From Eledone cirrhosa (taxonomy: Eukaryota), in the NCBI GenBank assembly GCA_964016885.1, contig OZ024750.1:34844001-34908000 (forward strand): a DNA stretch of 64,000 nucleotides. Reading direction: 5' to 3'. The stretch's first letter is position 1. Each line of letters begins with the position of its first letter. Shown here one piece after another: positions 1 to 8,553 of this stretch. A model generated the notes under the pieces. That model was not told where the DNA came from and searched no databases. It saw only the letters and a list, made by a program, of their open reading frames with translations. The position numbers and the translations under genes were made by a program.

Positions 1-213
1 TACTTACCCCCTCCCTCCTGTAGTACCAGACATGTGGTGGAATCAATTGAACTAACAATACTTACCCCCTCCCCCCTGTAGTACCAGACATGTGGTGGAA
101 TCAATTGAACTAACAATACTTACCCCCTCCCTCCTGTAGTACCAGACATGTGGTGGGATCAATTGAACTAACAATACTTACCCCCTCCCTCCTGTAGTAC
201 CAGACATGTGGTG
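1..213. repeat. 58-bp tandem repeat, at least 3.7 copies, probably truncated by the window start
   Basis: Unit tacttaccccctccctcctgtagtaccagacatgtggtggaatcaattgaactaacaa recurs at 1, 59, 117 and 175 with single substitutions. Confidence 0.95.
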
Positions 214-258
214 AGAAGAAGAAGAAGAAGAAGAAGAAGAAGAAGAAGAAGAAGAAGA
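214..258. repeat. (AAG)n microsatellite
   Basis: About 14-15 perfect AAG/GAA units, seen directly. Confidence 0.95.
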
Positions 259-475
259 TATGATACAAAAATATGAAATAAAAACTGACCAGGAGTTGGA
301 TTAGACTAACAACACTTCTTGTTTGATATTTTAACCCTTTAACATTTAAACCGGCTGTATCTGGTCAGAATTCCCTCACCTCTTTCTGTTCAAATCAGCT
401 GTAACTGACCACTCATACTTATATTAAGGCATTGTTCTCAAAATAAATAATATTAAAATCTTATAGATTCTATAT

Positions 476-898
476 TATGTGAGATATTTTTGTGAGGTAA
501 AGCCTTTACTGTGAAAATACAATAGTATATATAGAGTAATGTAAATGTTATGTGAGATAATTTTGTGAGGTAAAGCCTTTACTGTGAAAATACAATAGTA
601 TATATAGAGTAATGTAAATGTTATGTGAGATATTATGTGAGGTAAAGCCTTTACTGTGAAAATACAATAGTATATATAGAGTAATGTAAATGTTATGTGA
701 GATATTATGTGAGGTAAAGCCTTTACTGTGAAAATACAATAGTATATATAGAGTAATGTAAATGTTATGTGAGATATTATGTGAGGTAAAGCCTTTACCA
801 TGAAAATACAATAGTATATATAGAGTAATGTAAATGTTATGTGAGATATTATGTGAGGTAAAGCCTTTACCATGAAAATACAATAGTATATATAGAGT
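476..898. repeat. 72-bp minisatellite, left arm (~5.9 units)
   Basis: Unit gttatgtgagatattatgtgaggtaaagcctttac(tg/ca)tgaaaatacaatagtatatatagagtaatgtaaat. The 24-aa periodicity in the ORF track confirms a 72-bp period. Confidence 0.97.
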
Positions 899-904
899 GG
901 TTTC

Positions 905-910
905 TTTATT
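905..910 (-). promoter_or_regulatory. Polyadenylation signal of the retrotransposon
   Basis: AATAAA on the minus strand, 6 nt before the 3' junction with the minisatellite. Confidence 0.6.
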
Positions 911-1135
911 TGCCATTAGGGCACAAAAGGTAGGGACAGATACAAGGGGGGAAGTTTACATATAATTAACGAGTACAAAGATATAACAATGAAATAACAA
1001 CAACAAACGAAGTCCTCAATAGGGAGGGGGCATTAACATGGGTCGCACACACCCCGGAAAAAATGTGCAACCCTTCTCCTCAGGAGCACAAAGAGTAGGT
1101 GCTTCCCTCGTCTCCTCTTTTTCCTCTTCTTTCAC

Positions 1136-4100
1136 CTACAGGCTGATATAGAGAGAAGACCCATTCACTCTGGCCATTCTCCCTACTTTCACCCACCTTT
1201 CATAAAATTTGCTGGGGTAGAGCACCTCTCTCTCCATTCTGATCCTTCTTTTAAAATGGTATTTGAAAAAGGGGACCAGTTGTTGGCCGGAGAGAAAGGT
1301 GTCTGACCTCAGCCCTTTCAGCCTCGTCCACCATACAACTTCTTTAGCCATGGCTATCACACAGAGAAAAACCGCTTCTCCTTCGTTTTTGAAAGGGGGA
1401 GGCGGTTTGATCGTGACAATGGACTCGGTGGTCAACCGGATTGGTCCCACCCTCGACAGTAGTCGTTCCACATAGCCCCACAGGTCAGCAATGCCTGGGC
1501 AGTGTACGAATGCGTGCGCAACGGTTTCGTCATCATGCACGCATCTCGGACAGATCTTATTCAAAGGATCTCTACCCAGGCTCCCATGCCTGTGGAGCTT
1601 GTCTCGAACGGGTAGAGCCCCTCGGTAGCACTGCCAAGCCAGGGACTTTTGGAAGTTGTCCATCGGTCCAGGGCCAAACGTCCTACCGAACAGACTGGCC
1701 AGTTCATCTTCCTCCATGCCTAGAGCTTCTCCGAGAGCATCGTCGCACCTGCTGCGTACCAACCCTCTATAGAATGTCGACGTGGAGTCTCCACTGATTG
1801 CCGGGTCCGCTTTCCAGAGGACCGTGAGCGCCTGGGCACATTCAATGTGCCAGTCGCCCACTTTTCTCGGTCTTTGCTTGACCCAGGATTGCAGCTCGGT
1901 GAGCGAGACGAGTCTGGGAAAGGCTCGCCTCACAAACGGGGCCCACACCGGTTGACCGGTGAGGAATACCTGGAGGTGCCGTAGCCTTAATGCGTGTTTA
2001 CGCATCTGTAGCCACGGCATCCCCAGCCCTCCTTTCGAAGGGTGTTGACAGCAGATGGATCTCCTCACCAAAGGGGTCCGCTTGTTCCAAAGAAATTGGA
2101 ACAGCGCGCACTCCATTTTGGCGAGTCTTTTCACTGGGCAAGGCACGACGGTCAAGCGGTAGTAGATGACGGATGCTATATAAGTATTCGCCACCTCCGC
2201 TCGACCTTTCAGGGATAGTTTGCACTGGGCCCACTTCTGGGTGAGTGCAAACACCCTGGCCGTTACCTCATTCCAGTTTTTCTCCACCTGGAGGTCTGGT
2301 CCGAACCAGACCCCAAGCAGCTTCACCGGGCCCTCCGTCCAGCGTCCGACGACGTCGTTGGAGGGCATCGGTTTGCCTCTCCATATTCCGAGTTGCAAAC
2401 CGACGGACTTGTCCCGGTTCAGCTTGGCTCCTGTAAACCTTTCATATTCCTCCAGTAAGGTGCCGATCTCACCGATTTGCGAGGTTTTCGACACCATTAC
2501 TGTCACGTCATCGGCGTAGGCCGACGCCGCTTTCTGCAATCCCGGTTCCAAAGAGATGCCCTGCAACCGCTCCAACTTCCGCAGTAGTGGCTCAAGAGCC
2601 AGCACATACAGTAGGGAGGAGAGAGGGCATCCCTGTCGGATGGATCGCATGATTTGGAACGGCTCCGAGAGGTGGCCGTTCACCTTGACCCTTGAGCAGA
2701 CGTTGCTGCTGTGCATCGCAGCAATCCAACCCCTGAAAACGGGTCCGAAGCCTGCCGCCGCGAGCACCGCATCCAGGTAACGATGGTCAACTCTATCGAA
2801 AGCTTTAGATTGATCCAAGTTGATCAGGGCCCCACCAAAGCCGGGTTCATTCCCTACCCTCTCTATGATGTATCGCATAAGGTGGAGATTGTCGTGAATG
2901 GACCTGGACGGGATTGCGCATGTCTGCGCTTCTCCCACCAGGTTTCCAACGACAAGCGCCAACCTCTTCGCTAACACCTTGGCCAAAATCTTTAACTCTG
3001 TATTTAGCAGAGTTATGGGCCTGAAGTTACTTATGTCATCCCCCTTGTTCTCATCCTTCCTCACCAGCGTAACTACGCCCTTGGTCACAGAACTGGGAAT
3101 TCTCCCGTTCTGCTGCCAGTTGCAGTAGACCGCTTCGAGGATATCGGAGAACAAGTCCGGCATCGCTACATATAGCTCGTATGGTAGACCATCGAGACCC
3201 GGGGATTTGCGTTTGCCGCATTGGCTCAGCGCCGCCTCTATCTCAGCAGCTGAAATCGTCCTTTCGCAGGACTTCGCCTCCGCGTCCGAGAGGCGCGGCA
3301 GACCGTCGAGGTATGGATTGAAATCCATAGTCTCACCCGGCGCGCCGCCCCTCTCGAACAGTCGTGCAAAGTGCCGCTGAAAGGCCGCACACATCTGCCC
3401 AGGTTCAAGGATCACACGCCCATCCTGGTCCTTCAAAGACCGAATCGTGGACTTGTTCCCACTTTTTGCCTCTGTCACTCGGGCCCAGCTCACAGCTTTG
3501 GCTCCCTCATTACCCAGAGCACGTATTTTACTCCTGACAACGCAGCCTTCATGCTTCACCTCAAAGAACTGGTCTAAGGCCATTCTTGATGCCAGCACGC
3601 CGGCTACATTGCCACTCCTAATCGCCTCTTCTACTCTATCTACTAATTCCCTTTCCGTCTTGTTCCTATCCCTTGCTAATTCCTGACTAAAACCTATCGA
3701 TTCTATTCTAATTGCTCTCTTAAGAGAGCTCCACCACCTGTTGTTGACAATTGCCCCTGTCAAACTCTGCTTAACTAACGTGCTAATCCGTTTACTGTAA
3801 GCTTTGCTTCTCGGTAAGGACAAGTTCAGCTTCCAGTAACCGGGTCCCTGTCTATGGGTTCTATCAAGGTTGGCTATGCAGGTCACTAACTTGTGATCCG
3901 AATAGTCAACCATGAACATTTTTGGACAGCTAAATGTGTCCCTATCGTTCTCTCTAACTAGGACCCTATCTAGGTACGACCTAGATGTTCCACTGCGATT
4001 GGTCCACGTCCATAGTGGTACAGTCGGAAAATCTAGTCGATATCTATCGGCCAGGTCAAATCGGCCGATTAACCTTTTGAGGCTTTTACACCCCCCTCTA

Positions 4101-4573
4101 TTGGCACATGCCCCTACATAGTCCCAACGTGCATCCAGGATACCATTCCAGTCCCCCACTAAAAGCAAGGAGCGGGACGTTCCCAGAAAAGTTTCCAGAC
4201 GTTGGAAGTATTCCGGCCGCGCTGCCCAAAAAGGGGCGTACACAGCTATTAGTCTAAGGGCTCCACTTTCACTACTGCCGACGTCTAAAACCACCAGTCG
4301 ACCCTCCGGGTCCAGGTGCACCTTCTGTATGGCGAGGCCCAGGTGTTTTCGCAGCAGAACGACAACTCCACCCCCACCCCCCGGTTGACAGAGAGATGCG
4401 AAGATCTCAAAGTCGTCGAAGAGGGGCGCCAGTTGGTGCTCGCTGCTGATCCTGGACTCGCAAATAGCCATTACATCCATTCTATGCGACCTGAGATCGT
4501 TTAAAAGTTTGCCTTGTTTCCAAGACAGTCCCAGGCCACGTACATTCAGACACCCAACTCTTATATCAGCCAT
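1136..4573 (-). CDS. ORF2 polyprotein: AP-like endonuclease, reverse transcriptase and C-terminal CCHC zinc finger (1145 aa)
   Basis: APE motifs GCLNVRGL, VYAP, GDWN, SYLDR, SDH. RT motifs KSPGLDG, FRPITLLN, DQSKAFDRV, RQGCPLS, YADD. C-terminal CPRC-x8-H-x4-C. The frame is uninterrupted and starts with ATG. Confidence 0.97.
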   Translation of the reverse strand: MADIRVGCLNVRGLGLSWKQGKLLNDLRSHRMDVMAICESRISSEHQLAPLFDDFEIFASLCQPGGGGGVVVLLRKHLGLAIQKVHLDPEGRLVVLDVGSSESGALRLIAVYAPFWAARPEYFQRLETFLGTSRSLLLVGDWNGILDARWDYVGACANRGGCKSLKRLIGRFDLADRYRLDFPTVPLWTWTNRSGTSRSYLDRVLVRENDRDTFSCPKMFMVDYSDHKLVTCIANLDRTHRQGPGYWKLNLSLPRSKAYSKRISTLVKQSLTGAIVNNRWWSSLKRAIRIESIGFSQELARDRNKTERELVDRVEEAIRSGNVAGVLASRMALDQFFEVKHEGCVVRSKIRALGNEGAKAVSWARVTEAKSGNKSTIRSLKDQDGRVILEPGQMCAAFQRHFARLFERGGAPGETMDFNPYLDGLPRLSDAEAKSCERTISAAEIEAALSQCGKRKSPGLDGLPYELYVAMPDLFSDILEAVYCNWQQNGRIPSSVTKGVVTLVRKDENKGDDISNFRPITLLNTELKILAKVLAKRLALVVGNLVGEAQTCAIPSRSIHDNLHLMRYIIERVGNEPGFGGALINLDQSKAFDRVDHRYLDAVLAAAGFGPVFRGWIAAMHSSNVCSRVKVNGHLSEPFQIMRSIRQGCPLSSLLYVLALEPLLRKLERLQGISLEPGLQKAASAYADDVTVMVSKTSQIGEIGTLLEEYERFTGAKLNRDKSVGLQLGIWRGKPMPSNDVVGRWTEGPVKLLGVWFGPDLQVEKNWNEVTARVFALTQKWAQCKLSLKGRAEVANTYIASVIYYRLTVVPCPVKRLAKMECALFQFLWNKRTPLVRRSICCQHPSKGGLGMPWLQMRKHALRLRHLQVFLTGQPVWAPFVRRAFPRLVSLTELQSWVKQRPRKVGDWHIECAQALTVLWKADPAISGDSTSTFYRGLVRSRCDDALGEALGMEEDELASLFGRTFGPGPMDNFQKSLAWQCYRGALPVRDKLHRHGSLGRDPLNKICPRCVHDDETVAHAFVHCPGIADLWGYVERLLSRVGPIRLTTESIVTIKPPPPFKNEGEAVFLCVIAMAKEVVWWTRLKGLRSDTFLSGQQLVPFFKYHFKRRIRMEREVLYPSKFYERWVKVGRMARVNGSSLYISL

Positions 4574-4594
4574 GTTGGTTAAAAGAGGAAGGAC

Positions 4595-6318
4595 CTACCT
4601 GTTCGGCTCCTGAGGAGCAGGTTGCACAATATCCATGGGCGTATTGGAGGGGTTGTTTGGTGGGGTGTTGTTCTGTGGTGGAGTGGGGGTGTTTGGTGAG
4701 GTGTGGGTGGGGAAACGTTTCAAGAGGACGCGGTTATAGGGTCGAGTACATGTTTTCCCCACGTCCTCAGGAAAGTTCTCTCTTAGTTTTGCATAGGTGT
4801 CCATTGGGAGTCTTATCATTTTTAAATGCGGTTTGTTGGCCGCGCTTGCAAAGAATTGCCCTTCAGTTTCCACCGAAGGGTCTTTGTGTATTGTTTTTAC
4901 TAGTTCTTTGTTATTTGTGTTAATGTATGTATACTGTTTTATTTGTGTTGTGTTTGTTTGTTGTTCTTGTGTGTGCTTACGTTTTGTTGTATGTGTTATG
5001 TTTTGGGGTGGGGCGGATTTTGTTTGTTCTGTTTGTTTTGTTTTTGTTGGTGGTTGTGTGTTTGTTTCGTTTATGTTCGAGTGGTGCTTTCTTTTTTTCC
5101 TTTTTACAGGTTGGAAGGGTTCCCCCTCTTCGTCACTAGGTGCCGTTTCCGCTGGGTCCTCGTCCGTGCTGTCGGGTAGTGGTGTATTTTGGGGTTTTGT
5201 TGTATTTGTGTGTGTTTTGGGAGTTGTTTTGGGTGGGGCCGTGTCTTGTGTTATTTTTCCCTGTTGTTTTTGTTGTTGTTGTGGTGGTGGTGGTGGAGGT
5301 GGTGGTGGTGGTGTGTGGGGTGTAGGCAAAAGAGCCTTTTTTTTGTCAATTGAGGACAAGCAGCCCTTAGATGACCCCTGCTTGAACAGTAGTAACATAT
5401 GGGCCTCCTACCCTCGGCTGAAATATATATAAATGTTTCTCCATCGAGGGACACCCTCTGTGGTATTCTAGCTATTCGTTCTGGTCTCATTTGGACCAGA
5501 ACCTCCACGCTCAAACCGCCGAAAACGTCTGTGGTGACTTCTCCTACTGAGAGGATTCCGTCCTCGTCTTCTAAAAATCCTGTTAGTACCCAGGAAATGC
5601 ATGCATTTGGCCGGATTCCGGAGACCCTTATCTTCTGCGTTCTTTTCCCTAAATATGTGGGGAAAAATGTATGTAGCTTGGAAACAATTGGTGCCACAGA
5701 GTATTTCCTGGCCGTCAATTGATCCTTCATTAGGACCGTTATATTCCCATAGAGTGGCCCTTTTTGTATGAACGATATATCACTCCACACATTTTTTAGG
5801 ACCAGCTCAATCTCTTTTTGGGATAATTGAGTTGGTTTCCTTGTTATGTTGGAAATTATTCTGAAAGATATCGTTCTTAGCGTCGTGTCTCTTTTGATTT
5901 CTTGTGGGGAGGTGATTGTGAAGTCTCCTCCTTCTTTGAAAGTTACATAATGTTTCGCTTCCTTCATCTTTTCTCTCAGAGTTGTAATGTCCAGTTGCTT
6001 GCAGGTTTGTGTTTTCCGGACCGCCTGTGCAAAGGAGGTACCAGTAGTGGGTTCGCTTTGTTTGGTGTTATCGTTATTTTTTCCTTGGTTGGTGTTGTGA
6101 CTATTGCTGTTATTGTCGTTGTTGTTTTTGTCTGCGTTTATGTGACTTTCTGGGTTTTCACCCATTTTTACAAATTTTTCTTTTAATTCCGTGTTCCATG
6201 TTTCTTTTGCAGAAGTCAGGAGGGAAGACTTAGAGCCTTGTGCTTCTAGCTTCTCTGTATCACCTTTCTTAGGGGGCGTGGCTTTCACGTTAGGATGAGA
6301 TGTGAAAATTCCGTCCAT
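4595..6318 (-). CDS. ORF1 nucleic-acid-binding (gag-like) protein, ~574 aa when joined across a -1 frameshift in the A8 run at 5337-5344
   Basis: First ATG at 6318 (MDGIFTSH; the track start at 6411 is TTG). SFAQAV motif and CX2CX4HX4C knuckle CYYCSSRGHLRAAC. Continuation in the 4595..5398 frame is Pro/Thr/Gln-rich with FQPVKRKKRK and ends 21 nt before the ORF2 ATG. One extra A joins the two frames. Confidence 0.85.
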
Positions 6319-6528
6319 TTCTATTAGTTTGCTGTAATAAGTTTTTAACTGGAAAATTCGCCCCCAAAAGGGGCGAAAATAAATAAACTCAAAGTTTGAC
6401 GACCAAGGCAAGGGGTTAACGTATATTACAGTATAAAAAAATTAATCAAAACTCACTTTTGAGTAAGTAAATCCGACTCGGTAGCCGAGCTTGTTCACAC
6501 ACGTCAACACACGTCTCTCGTATACGAG

Positions 6529-7323
6529 ATGTTATGTGAGATATTATGTGAGGTAAAGCCTTTACTGTGAAAATACAATAGTATATATAGAGTAATGTAA
6601 ATGTTATGTGAGATATTATGTGAGGTAAAGCCTTTACCATGAAAATACAATAGTATATATAGAGTAATGTAAATGTTATGTGAGATATTATGTGAGGTAA
6701 AGCCTTTACCATGAAAATACAATAGTATATATAGAGTAATGTAAATGTTATGTGAGATATTATGTGAGGTAAAGCCTTTACCATGAAAATACAATAGTAT
6801 ATATAGAGTAATATAAATGTTATGTGAGATATTATGTGAGGTAAAGCCTTTACCATGAAAATACAATAGTATATATAGAGTAATGTAAATGTTATGTGAG
6901 ATATTATGTGAGGTAAAGCCTTTACCATGAAAATACAATAGTATATATAGAGTAATGTAAATGTTATGTGAGATATTATGTGAGGTAAAGCCTTTACCAT
7001 GAAAATACAATAGTATATATAGAGTAATGTAAATGTTATGTGAGATATTATGTGAGGTAAAGTCTTTACTGTGAAAATACAATAGTATATATAGAGTAAT
7101 GTAAATGTTATGTGAGATATTATGTGAGGTAAAGCCTTTACTGTGAAAATACAATAGTATATATAGAGTAATGTAAATGTTATGTGGGATATTATGTGAG
7201 GTAAAGCCTTTACTGTGAAAATACAATAGTATATATAGAGTAATGTAAATGTTATGTGAGATATTATGTGAGGTAAAGCCTTTACTGAGAAAATACAATA
7301 GTATATATAGAGTAATGTAAATG
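6529..7323. repeat. 72-bp minisatellite, right arm (~11 units)
   Basis: Same unit as 476-898, with near-identical copies. Confidence 0.97.
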
Positions 7324-7424
7324 CTAAATGCTTAAGCTGACTTTCATGACATCATTTGTTATAGAAAACTAAGATATGACTAGAATAGACAAGAAAACGG
7401 GGAATAGTATAAATATATCATATA

Positions 7425-7592
7425 CCATATTTCCTGGCGCTGAAGACACTTCATCCTCGAGGACGCACTCTAATTTTGACAATCAAAAATTTGAAAAAAA
7501 ATAATAAACAACCTTCGGCCTCTAGGGCACATGATAGATTTTTGAGACTTATTTTAGGAAAACAGTAGCGTCTTCAGCGCCGGGAAATACGG
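7425..7592. mobile_element. MITE with ~25-bp terminal inverted repeats, Tc1/mariner-like
   Basis: TA|CCATATTTCCTGGCGCTGAAGACAC ... GCGTCTTCAGCGCCGGGAAATACGG|TC. The TIRs match with 3 mismatches; TA on the left, degenerate TC on the right. Confidence 0.75.
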
Positions 7593-7821
7593 TCACTTAA
7601 TGAAAACAACAACAAAAAACTTTAAAATAGATTAATAAATGAAATAACCAGTTTTCTCTGATTTCCTTATATTCTGATGAAGGGAATTTTAAGTCGTGAA
7701 ATATTAAGACAAAAGAAACAACAAAAACAAAGAAAGATTACCAGGTAACTAAATTTTTAGTTACTGTAATCTTATTGTTCATTTTGCATTATTTAGACAT
7801 ATACCTTTCCACATTATATAA

Positions 7822-8553
7822 TCGATATATATAAAACAGAGAATGTCTGTCTGTTTATCTGCCTGTCTGACTCCCTAAAACTCAAGAACCACCCAACCCA
7901 TTGTTTTCAAATTTACACATGTAATACTTATGGTCGTGTGAGTGTTTTAAGCAAAAACAATTTCAAATTTTCAATGCCCTAGGGACCGCATTAGGCGCCG
8001 GTAACATCGCGCCCTTATAATATCTGTCTGCATTATGACATTATCTGTGTGTGTGTGTATATATGTATATATAGTGTATATATATATATATATATATAGT
8101 GTGTATATATATATATATATAGTGTGTAACGTTTTTCGAAATATTTACTTCTGAGTTCACAGATTAATTTTTTTTAGTTTCAGAAAATCCCGGTAAGGAT
8201 GAAAGCAGCGATTCTTCACTTAATCTTTAATCTGTTATTTTAATATATATATATATAATTATATATTCGTGTACAGATATTTTTGCATACACAATAACAA
8301 AATATAAACAAACGTATTTATTTCACGAGGCTCGACAGCAGCAAAAACAACAACAAAAAAGAGACGGAACGCAATTACATGCTTTTAAAAAATCTTAATT
8401 GAAAATTATTTGCCTATTCACCCAAAGCGACTTCATTTTTTATTAGGACTTCTGCATCAATTGCTGAACATACAACACAACTGTTTCAGAAAGGAGGAAT
8501 AACCATGCCAATCTATGTTTAGAATCCCGAGCAATGCCAGGCCATTCTGCTAG
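7822..8553 (+). mobile_element. Non-autonomous Helitron-like element
   Basis: 5' A|TCGATATATATAAAA followed by (GTCT)-like repeats. 3' degenerate GC hairpin CCCGAGCAATGCCAGG about 8 nt before CTAG|T. It sits between A and T with no TSD, the canonical Helitron end structure. Confidence 0.7.

What the first reader, a model, noticed from the sequence alone, without database searches (positions are those of the whole stretch)
1064..4628. ORF2 of the retrotransposon is bracketed by a long imperfect inverted repeat pairing the ORF1/ORF2 junction with the ORF2 stop and 3'UTR
Seen: plus 1064-1155 (tgtgcaacccttctcctcaggagcacaaagagtaggtgcttccc...ttcctcttctttcacctacaggctgatatagagag) aligns co-linearly with the reverse complement of 4558-4628 (tgtgcaacctgctcctcaggagccgaacaggtaggtccttcctcttttaaccaacatggctgatataagag). 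Shared blocks are tgtgcaacc, ctcctcaggagc, gtaggt, ttcctctt, acc, aca, ggctgatata and agag, with one ~20-nt bulge. Inference: in the element RNA about 70 nt covering the last ORF1 codons, ORF1 stop, 21-nt spacer and ORF2 AUG can pair with the last ORF2 codons, ORF2 stop and 3'UTR, looping out 3.4 kb. The match overlaps coding sequence at both ends and is interrupted by bulges, which looks more like a selected RNA structure than a recent inverted duplication. It could gate ORF2 re-initiation, control splicing, or promote cis-preference by holding the 3'UTR near the ORF2 start. I do not know of this architecture being described for L1/Tx1 elements, but I cannot search the literature.
Basis: partly seen in the sequence, partly recalled or inferred. 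Interest (0 to 1): 0.9.

Follow-up and report, generated by a model that had tools for sequence, protein, structure and literature searches.

The report
RNA clamp around a LINE's ORF2
In a young family of jumping genes from an octopus-like animal, the sequences just before and just after the reverse-transcriptase gene are complementary and have changed together across sister families, and the predicted RNA helix covers a conserved splice-donor signal, so it likely decides whether that whole gene is kept in or cut out of the message.

Summary
Confirmed. The minus-strand element (899-6528) is a young L1/Tx1-type LINE in a 72-bp satellite. Its ORF1-end/spacer/ORF2-start pairs with its ORF2-end/3'UTR: -112.7 kcal/mol against -56.4±5.6 for 1000 shuffles, and the helix survives folding of 3,862 nt. 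Six other families in the genome, whose arms share only 44-76% identity, each keep their own helix in the same register; own-family pairing ranks 1 of 5040 permutations. Fifty of 51 distant relatives show no helix. Best reading: a keep-or-splice switch for ORF2, like copia gag splicing (0.5); rivals are translational gating and decay escape. No spliced product was seen and no RNA run was on record. The scan noted this architecture earlier in sister families on other DNA of this genome.

The parts
899..6528 (-). Full-length two-ORF non-LTR retrotransposon (L1/Tx1 type), young family
   Evidence: Bounded by satellite arrays 475-898 and 6529-7323; 40 best genomic matches to the 3' end are 99-100% identical, 4131 candidates
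4595..6318 (-). ORF1 (zinc-knuckle-like motif), split into two frames in this copy at the A run at 5337-5344
   Evidence: zf-CCHC below cut-off, E 0.004; run length 8 in 10, 9 in 23, 10 in 2 of 35 loci
4558..4628 (-). 5' arm of the helix: last ORF1 codons, ORF1 stop, spacer, ORF2 start (predicted pairing extends about 4550-4648)
4593..4601 (-). Splice-donor-like site CAG|GTAGGT overlapping the ORF1 stop (boundary 4599|4598)
   Evidence: 8 of 9 consensus positions, tied best of 286 GT sites; kept as GTAAGT, GTGAGT or GTAGGT in 9 of 9 representatives
4574..4594 (-). 21-nt pyrimidine-rich spacer, in frame and stop-free between ORF1 stop and ORF2 AUG
1136..4573 (-). ORF2, 1145 aa: AP-type endonuclease, reverse transcriptase, zf-RVT
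   Evidence: Pfam PF03372, PF00078, PF13966 above cut-off; best solved match human L1 ORF2p, E 3.5e-53
1064..1155 (-). 3' arm of the helix: last ORF2 codons, ORF2 stop, first 70 nt of the 3'UTR (predicted pairing extends about 1043-1170)
1135..1160 (-). Acceptor-like site: pyrimidine tract ending in the ORF2 stop TAG, followed by G (boundary 1136|1135); candidate intron 3463 nt
   Evidence: AG at the ORF2 stop in 7 of 9 representatives, absent in family 2
1132..1134 (-). TGA that would end ORF1 directly after a donor-acceptor junction
   Evidence: Phase test
1095..1100 (-). ACCTAC, the perfect complement of the donor hexamer in the predicted helix
905..910 (-). AATAAA poly(A) signal, about 225 nt after the ORF2 stop
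6332..6498 (-). Candidate short intron in the 5'UTR ending at a TTACAG acceptor 14 nt before the ORF1 AUG
   Evidence: Joint 6331 to 6498 in one contig of run X1 (kind unknown), not in X2-X4; the cut is 1 nt off a GT-AG pair
475..898 (.). 72-bp satellite, the insertion target (continues at 6529-7323)
   Evidence: 23 of 26 located 3' ends (30 loci examined) run into it

Best explanation
The element is an L1/Tx1-type retrotransposon whose ORF2 is flanked by two complementary arms that have changed together across families; they are predicted to form a long RNA helix that likely acts as a keep-or-splice switch for the whole of ORF2. Shown: the complementarity, its family-specific conservation, a donor motif at the ORF1 end in every family examined, and an AG at the ORF2 stop in most. 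Inferred: during transcription the donor is exposed for 3.4 kb; when the 3' arm emerges, either the spliceosome joins the donor to the AG at the ORF2 stop, giving a short message for ORF1p alone with its stop restored at the junction, or the arms zip up, bury donor, pyrimidine tract and acceptor, and keep ORF2 in the full-length RNA that makes ORF2p and is copied. This would give the excess of ORF1p over ORF2p, and spliced RNA, lacking ORF2, would rarely be copied into the genome.
For: Helix z -9.0 (window), -5.0 to -7.5 (family 2), -5.3 (family 3); -3.7 to -6.4 in 6 decayed family-4 copies; about -8 to -9 in family 5, -5.2 family 6, -6.9 family 7. Own-family pairing ranks 1 of 5040 permutations of 7 families although arms share 44-76% identity. 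Two-sided changes in 11 of 76 and 10 of 60 predicted inter-arm pairs in the two clades. Donor best or tied-best among 276-323 GT sites in 9 of 9 representatives, kept whether the ORF1 stop lies inside it (phase 2) or after it (phase 1) and whether it is TAA, TAG or TGA, so it is not a by-product of the stop. A stop follows the would-be junction within 0-1 codons in the family's own phase in 6 of 8 representatives tested; background 68 of 1284 positions. Family 2b took a different ORF1 but kept the family-2a sequence from -85, the outer edge of the arm. Precedent: Drosophila copia splices an intron covering the whole pol region and plant copia elements conserve a U1-type donor (PMC5580714, passages).
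Against: No spliced product seen. No precisely ORF2-less copy in 30+30 sampled loci, none genome-wide for this family (0 matches; the pattern core is exact in 30 of 30 loci) or family 2b (2 matches, both small local changes); this is weak, since such RNA would need ORF2p in trans. Family 2, apparently the most abundant, keeps helix and donor but has TAA at the ORF2 stop, and family 2 and copy L191 fail the phase match. Much of the acceptor signal can follow from a stop codon plus pairing with the AUG region, and in purine-rich sequence most T's start a stop, so the phase match reflects perhaps 2-3 independent events. Own-family pairing is the lowest or tied energy in only 6 of 9 rows. One family-2b/3 recombinant with an open ORF2 and unmatched arms exists (L011). 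Two-sided counts have no phylogenetic significance test.
Confidence: 0.5

Rival explanations
1. The helix works in the cytoplasm as a translation gate: it hides the ORF2 AUG until a ribosome finishing ORF1 melts it, which couples re-initiation to ORF1 termination. The donor only binds U1 without splicing, or is masked to prevent accidental splicing.
For: The AUG and its context lie inside the predicted helix in all families. Family 2 keeps the helix without the AG. SART1 uses a local structure downstream of its stop-start to tune ORF2 initiation (PMC3894237, passages); L1 ORF2 is thought to be made by rare re-initiation (PMC4091050, passages).
Against: A local hairpin would do; it does not explain why the partner strand is centred on the ORF2 stop, nor the frame-independent donor. 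In human L1 the spacer and ORF1 3' end are dispensable for ORF2 translation.
Confidence: 0.22
2. The helix is a natural fold-back that brings the poly(A) tail near the ORF1 stop, so that the bicistronic RNA, with 3.7 kb behind its first stop, escapes nonsense-mediated decay.
For: The 3' arm ends about 140 nt before the poly(A) signal and pairs across the ORF1 stop. Engineered 26-nt fold-backs suppress decay in a distance-dependent way (PMC2689704, passages).
Against: Does not explain the donor. 50 of 51 distant two-ORF relatives manage without the helix. Not exclusive with the best explanation.
Confidence: 0.15
3. The helix is an editing substrate (like the hepatitis delta amber/W site, recalled): A-to-I editing or readthrough of the ORF1 stop would make an ORF1-ORF2 fusion.
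For: ORF2 is in frame with ORF1 through a stop-free spacer in families 1, 6 and 7 (21, 24, 33 nt). Cephalopods edit RNA heavily (recalled).
Against: Out of frame or blocked by a stop in 6 of 9 representatives; stop is TAA or TGA in 7 of 9.
Confidence: 0.05
4. A relic of an old inverted duplication or template switch, or chance purine/pyrimidine skew, with no present function.
For: Pyrimidine-rich spacer and purine-rich 3'UTR start favour pairing; related families share ancestry; a mismatched recombinant exists (L011).
Against: Dinucleotide shuffles keep the skew and give z -5 to -10; arms diverged to about 50% identity yet stay matched within families.
Confidence: 0.08

Closest known systems
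Tx1-clade (L1-like) target-specific non-LTR retrotransposons: Tx1, Keno, Kibi, Koshi (PMC4494074, passages); L1-Tx1 families are listed as recently active in Octopus vulgaris (PMC13282606, passages)
   Same: Two ORFs, AP-type endonuclease + RT + zf-RVT, insertion into a specific repeat (72-bp satellite here; (ATT)n in sister families)
   Different: No ORF2-bracketing helix or ORF2-as-intron layout turned up in paper searches; 50 of 51 distant relatives lack the helix and 0 of 51 have the donor
Ty1/copia subgenomic gag RNA (Drosophila copia, Arabidopsis EVD; PMC5580714, passages)
   Same: A conserved U1-type donor at the end of the structural gene; splicing removes the enzyme gene to raise the structural-to-enzyme ratio; U1 also guards the full-length RNA
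   Different: LTR elements with one ORF; the term 'secondary structure' does not occur in that paper; here splicing is only predicted and the sites lie inside a long-range helix
SART1 and human L1 ORF2 translation (PMC3894237; PMC4091050; passages)
   Same: Control of ORF2 at the ORF1/ORF2 junction, with RNA structure in SART1
   Different: Local structure or none; no pairing with the 3'UTR 3.4 kb away
Engineered 3'UTR fold-back constructs that suppress nonsense-mediated decay (PMC2689704, passages)
   Same: Pairing of sequence near a stop codon with sequence near the poly(A) signal
   Different: Artificial; this would be a natural, evolving case
Long-range RNA-RNA bridges of plant RNA viruses that control frameshifting or readthrough (recalled, no call)
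   Same: Pairing over kilobases between a recoding site and the 3' region
   Different: Short kissing contacts in cytoplasmic viruses, no splice sites

Membership tests
L1/Tx1-type non-LTR retrotransposon | ORF2 with N-terminal AP endonuclease, RT and C-terminal zinc-binding region | tested here: met
   Pfam; best solved match L1 ORF2p
L1/Tx1-type non-LTR retrotransposon | Separate upstream ORF1 with zinc knuckle | tested here: inconclusive
   ORF1 present, 643-715 aa in intact sister copies; zf-CCHC match below cut-off
L1/Tx1-type non-LTR retrotransposon | No LTRs; shared 3' ends with poly(A) signal; 5'-truncated copies | tested here: met
Tx1 clade | Target-sequence preference | tested here: met
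   23 of 26 located 3' ends run into the 72-bp satellite at one position
Tx1 clade | RT phylogeny groups with named Tx1 families | not tested
Copia-type subgenomic splicing system | Conserved U1-type donor at the end of the structural gene | tested here: met
   9 of 9 representatives; consensus recalled
Copia-type subgenomic splicing system | Conserved acceptor giving a structural-protein-only message | tested here: inconclusive
   AG at ORF2 stop in 7 of 9; phase-matched stop in 6 of 8
Copia-type subgenomic splicing system | Spliced RNA observed | not testable with these tools
   No run on record as RNA; only contigs could be laid
Copia-type subgenomic splicing system | LTR retrotransposon with gag-pol | tested here: not met
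   Non-LTR element; it may work like this system but is not a member
Known Rfam RNA family | Match to a covariance model | tested here: not met
   0 matches at E<=1 in 800-6600; a model would not span a 3.4-kb loop

The most novel reading that the evidence does not exclude
This LINE lineage builds its whole reverse-transcriptase gene as a regulated intron whose two ends are clamped by a co-evolving 70-100-bp RNA helix: open means spliced, ORF1-only message; zipped means full-length genome. It would be a retrovirus-like balanced-splicing strategy evolved independently in a non-LTR element, and the matching arms would also restrict which families can recombine.
Probability: 0.45. Interest if true: 0.88.

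Novelty: new variant of a known kind. Interest (0 to 1): 0.74.

Why it matters
How two-ORF LINEs make much ORF1p and little ORF2p from one RNA is an open question (PMC3894237, PMC4091050, passages). This lineage offers a concrete, mutable device with natural compensatory variants in seven families, and one RT-PCR across the predicted junction would decide the main point. If true it adds splicing control by a kilobase-range helix to LINE biology; if the helix instead shields the RNA from decay, it is a natural case of a mechanism known from engineered constructs.

Tried and rejected
No RNA holder listed: no evidence either way. Contigs of runs X1-X4 (kind unknown) on the window element: no ORF2-skipping joint among the 15 joints shown of 137; X1 contigs bridge the donor (4438-4730) and acceptor (887-1214), which shows the unspliced form is present and nothing about rare forms. 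X1 on family 2b: none of 10 joints skips ORF2; a contig bridges the donor. Search for ORF2-less genomic copies: none. Metagenome scan gave only distant relatives (24-40% best-segment identity); 51 of 80 loci had a long ORF and enough flank, 3 were too near an end, 26 had no such ORF; the one low z (-3.9, L109) has a weak energy (-34.4) and was set aside. The roughly 40%-identical proteins P0003-P0026 came without DNA, so the depth of the architecture outside this genome is untested. Twenty old copies of an eighth group (L211-L230) gave no matched pair of junctions (part of that output was cut). A conserved long exon-2 frame was considered and rejected: most families stop at once. Cis-preference rejected by reasoning. 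Rfam: nothing. No supplements were read.
Full report
What is there. The window's first 6.5 kb hold a full-length two-ORF non-LTR retrotransposon on the minus strand (899-6528) between arrays of a 72-bp satellite. ORF2 (1136-4573, 1145 aa) has endonuclease, reverse-transcriptase and zf-RVT domains and is closest to human L1 ORF2p among solved structures. The family is young: the 40 best matches to its 3' end are 99-100% identical, of 4131 candidates, in a 3.0-Gb genome. The nearest named protein is from Argonauta hians, 64%, so the host is probably an octopod (inference). 23 of 26 located 3' ends run into the satellite.

The arms align as stated and contain the longest inverted repeat of 1-8000. 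Duplex energy is -112.7 kcal/mol against -56.4±5.6 for 1000 shuffles; the best inverted alignment of the whole element scores 47 against 25-42 in 30 block shuffles. In uncentred 100-nt windows the arms rank 3rd and 5th of 5886 pairs, so raw energy alone does not single them out. The long-range helix is present in the minimum-energy fold of 3,862 nt.

It is under selection. Searches of the genome and fetched stretches gave seven families with both junctions, 64-89% identical over the last 900 nt of ORF2. Each has a helix in the same register: z -9.0, -5.0 to -7.5 and -5.3, -3.7 to -6.4 in six decayed copies, about -8 to -9, -5.2 and -6.9. In 5 of 5 elements scanned, the 5' arm's best partner among 157-158 windows is the ORF2-stop window. 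Arms share only 47-64% (5') and 44-76% (3') identity between families, yet own-family pairing ranks 1 of 5040 permutations of seven families, two near-duplicates dropped; row by row the own partner is lowest or tied in 6 of 9, the misses being among close relatives and family 6. Consensus folding gives two-sided changes in 11 of 76 and 10 of 60 inter-arm pairs, without a phylogenetic test. Family 2b carries a family-4-like ORF1 but matches family 2a from -85, the outer edge of the arm. One recombinant with unmatched arms and an open ORF2 was seen (L011). Among 51 of 80 distant metagenome relatives that could be tested, mean z was 0.0 and one was below -2, so the helix is lineage-specific.

A splice-donor motif sits 25-44 nt before the ORF2 AUG in 9 of 9 representatives and is the best or tied-best match to the recalled consensus among 276-323 GT sites in each; 0 of 51 distant relatives have one there. 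It persists when the ORF1 stop lies inside it and when it lies after it, and with all three stop codons. In the window its six bases pair perfectly with 1095-1100. The ORF2 stop is TAG in 7 of 9 representatives, after a pyrimidine tract in the window's clade. Joining donor and AG would remove 3463 nt and leave ORF1p unchanged here; a stop follows within 0-1 codons in the own phase in 6 of 8 representatives, background 68 of 1284. The misses are family 2, which has TAA, and copy L191.

No spliced product was found. No ORF2-less copy in 30+30 sampled loci, each set including the window's own copy, nor by genome-wide patterns. No run is on record as RNA and only contigs could be laid; these cannot show absence. 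One X1 contig joins 6331 to 6498 at a canonical acceptor just before the ORF1 AUG, a hint that the element's RNA meets the spliceosome, but the run's kind is unknown and the cut is 1 nt off GT-AG.

Mechanism. Best (0.5): a keep-or-splice switch, working like copia gag splicing (PMC5580714, passages) but in a non-LTR element and with a long-range helix. Rivals: translation gate (0.22; PMC3894237, PMC4091050, passages), escape from nonsense-mediated decay by fold-back (0.15; PMC2689704, passages), editing or readthrough fusion (0.05; frame kept in 3 of 9), relic or chance (0.08). That the helix is selected I put near 0.9.

Novelty. Paper searches (listings; passages of six papers read) showed no description of this layout in LINEs; the library lacks most subscription journals. 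The scan itself noted the same helix or donor before in sister families on other DNA of this genome; I saw these notes after my own tests, and they are not independent support. Verdict: real, selected, a new variant of a known kind; interest 0.74.

Noticed in passing
window 475-898 and 6529-7323; loci L061-L090: The family inserts at one position and orientation in a 72-bp satellite; seven satellite bases are missing between the two junctions instead of a target-site duplication. Sister families end in and sit in (ATT)n runs.
   Followed up: partly
window 5337-5344: ORF1 is split into two frames at an A run whose length varies among copies (8 in 10, 9 in 23, 10 in 2 of 35 loci); short-read contigs show the longer run. 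Probably homopolymer slippage or assembly error, not programmed frameshifting.
   Followed up: partly
window 6332-6498: Candidate 5'UTR intron: joint in run X1 at a canonical acceptor; a second, stronger donor-like site lies at about 6452-6457; sister families also show donor-like motifs near their 5' ends.
   Followed up: partly
L011 (ORF2, about 1.2 kb before the stop): Recombinant: family-2b 5' part and family-3 3' part with an open ORF2 and unmatched arms, inside a tandem array of family-2b copies.
   Followed up: partly
L014, L231, L232, 85-145 nt before the ORF2 AUG: Family 2b has a family-4-like ORF1 end followed by a second, family-2a-like ORF1 end: an ORF1 swap that left a short duplication and kept the matching arm.
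   Followed up: partly
L172, L173, L179, L180, L192, L199, L203: Copies of different families are nested or stacked at each other's 3' ends, and a family-4/family-5 block is repeated several times on contig C8 near 39.1-40.1 Mb.
   Followed up: no
window 12686-64000: A 23-bp satellite of about 2250 copies fills the rest of the window, with strong strand skew.
   Followed up: no
window 7424-7593: Inverted repeat of 27 nt, 89% complementary, 116 nt apart, just beyond the satellite; possibly a small MITE or hairpin.
   Followed up: no
window 1-258: 58-bp tandem repeat (3.7 copies) followed by (AGA)15.
   Followed up: no
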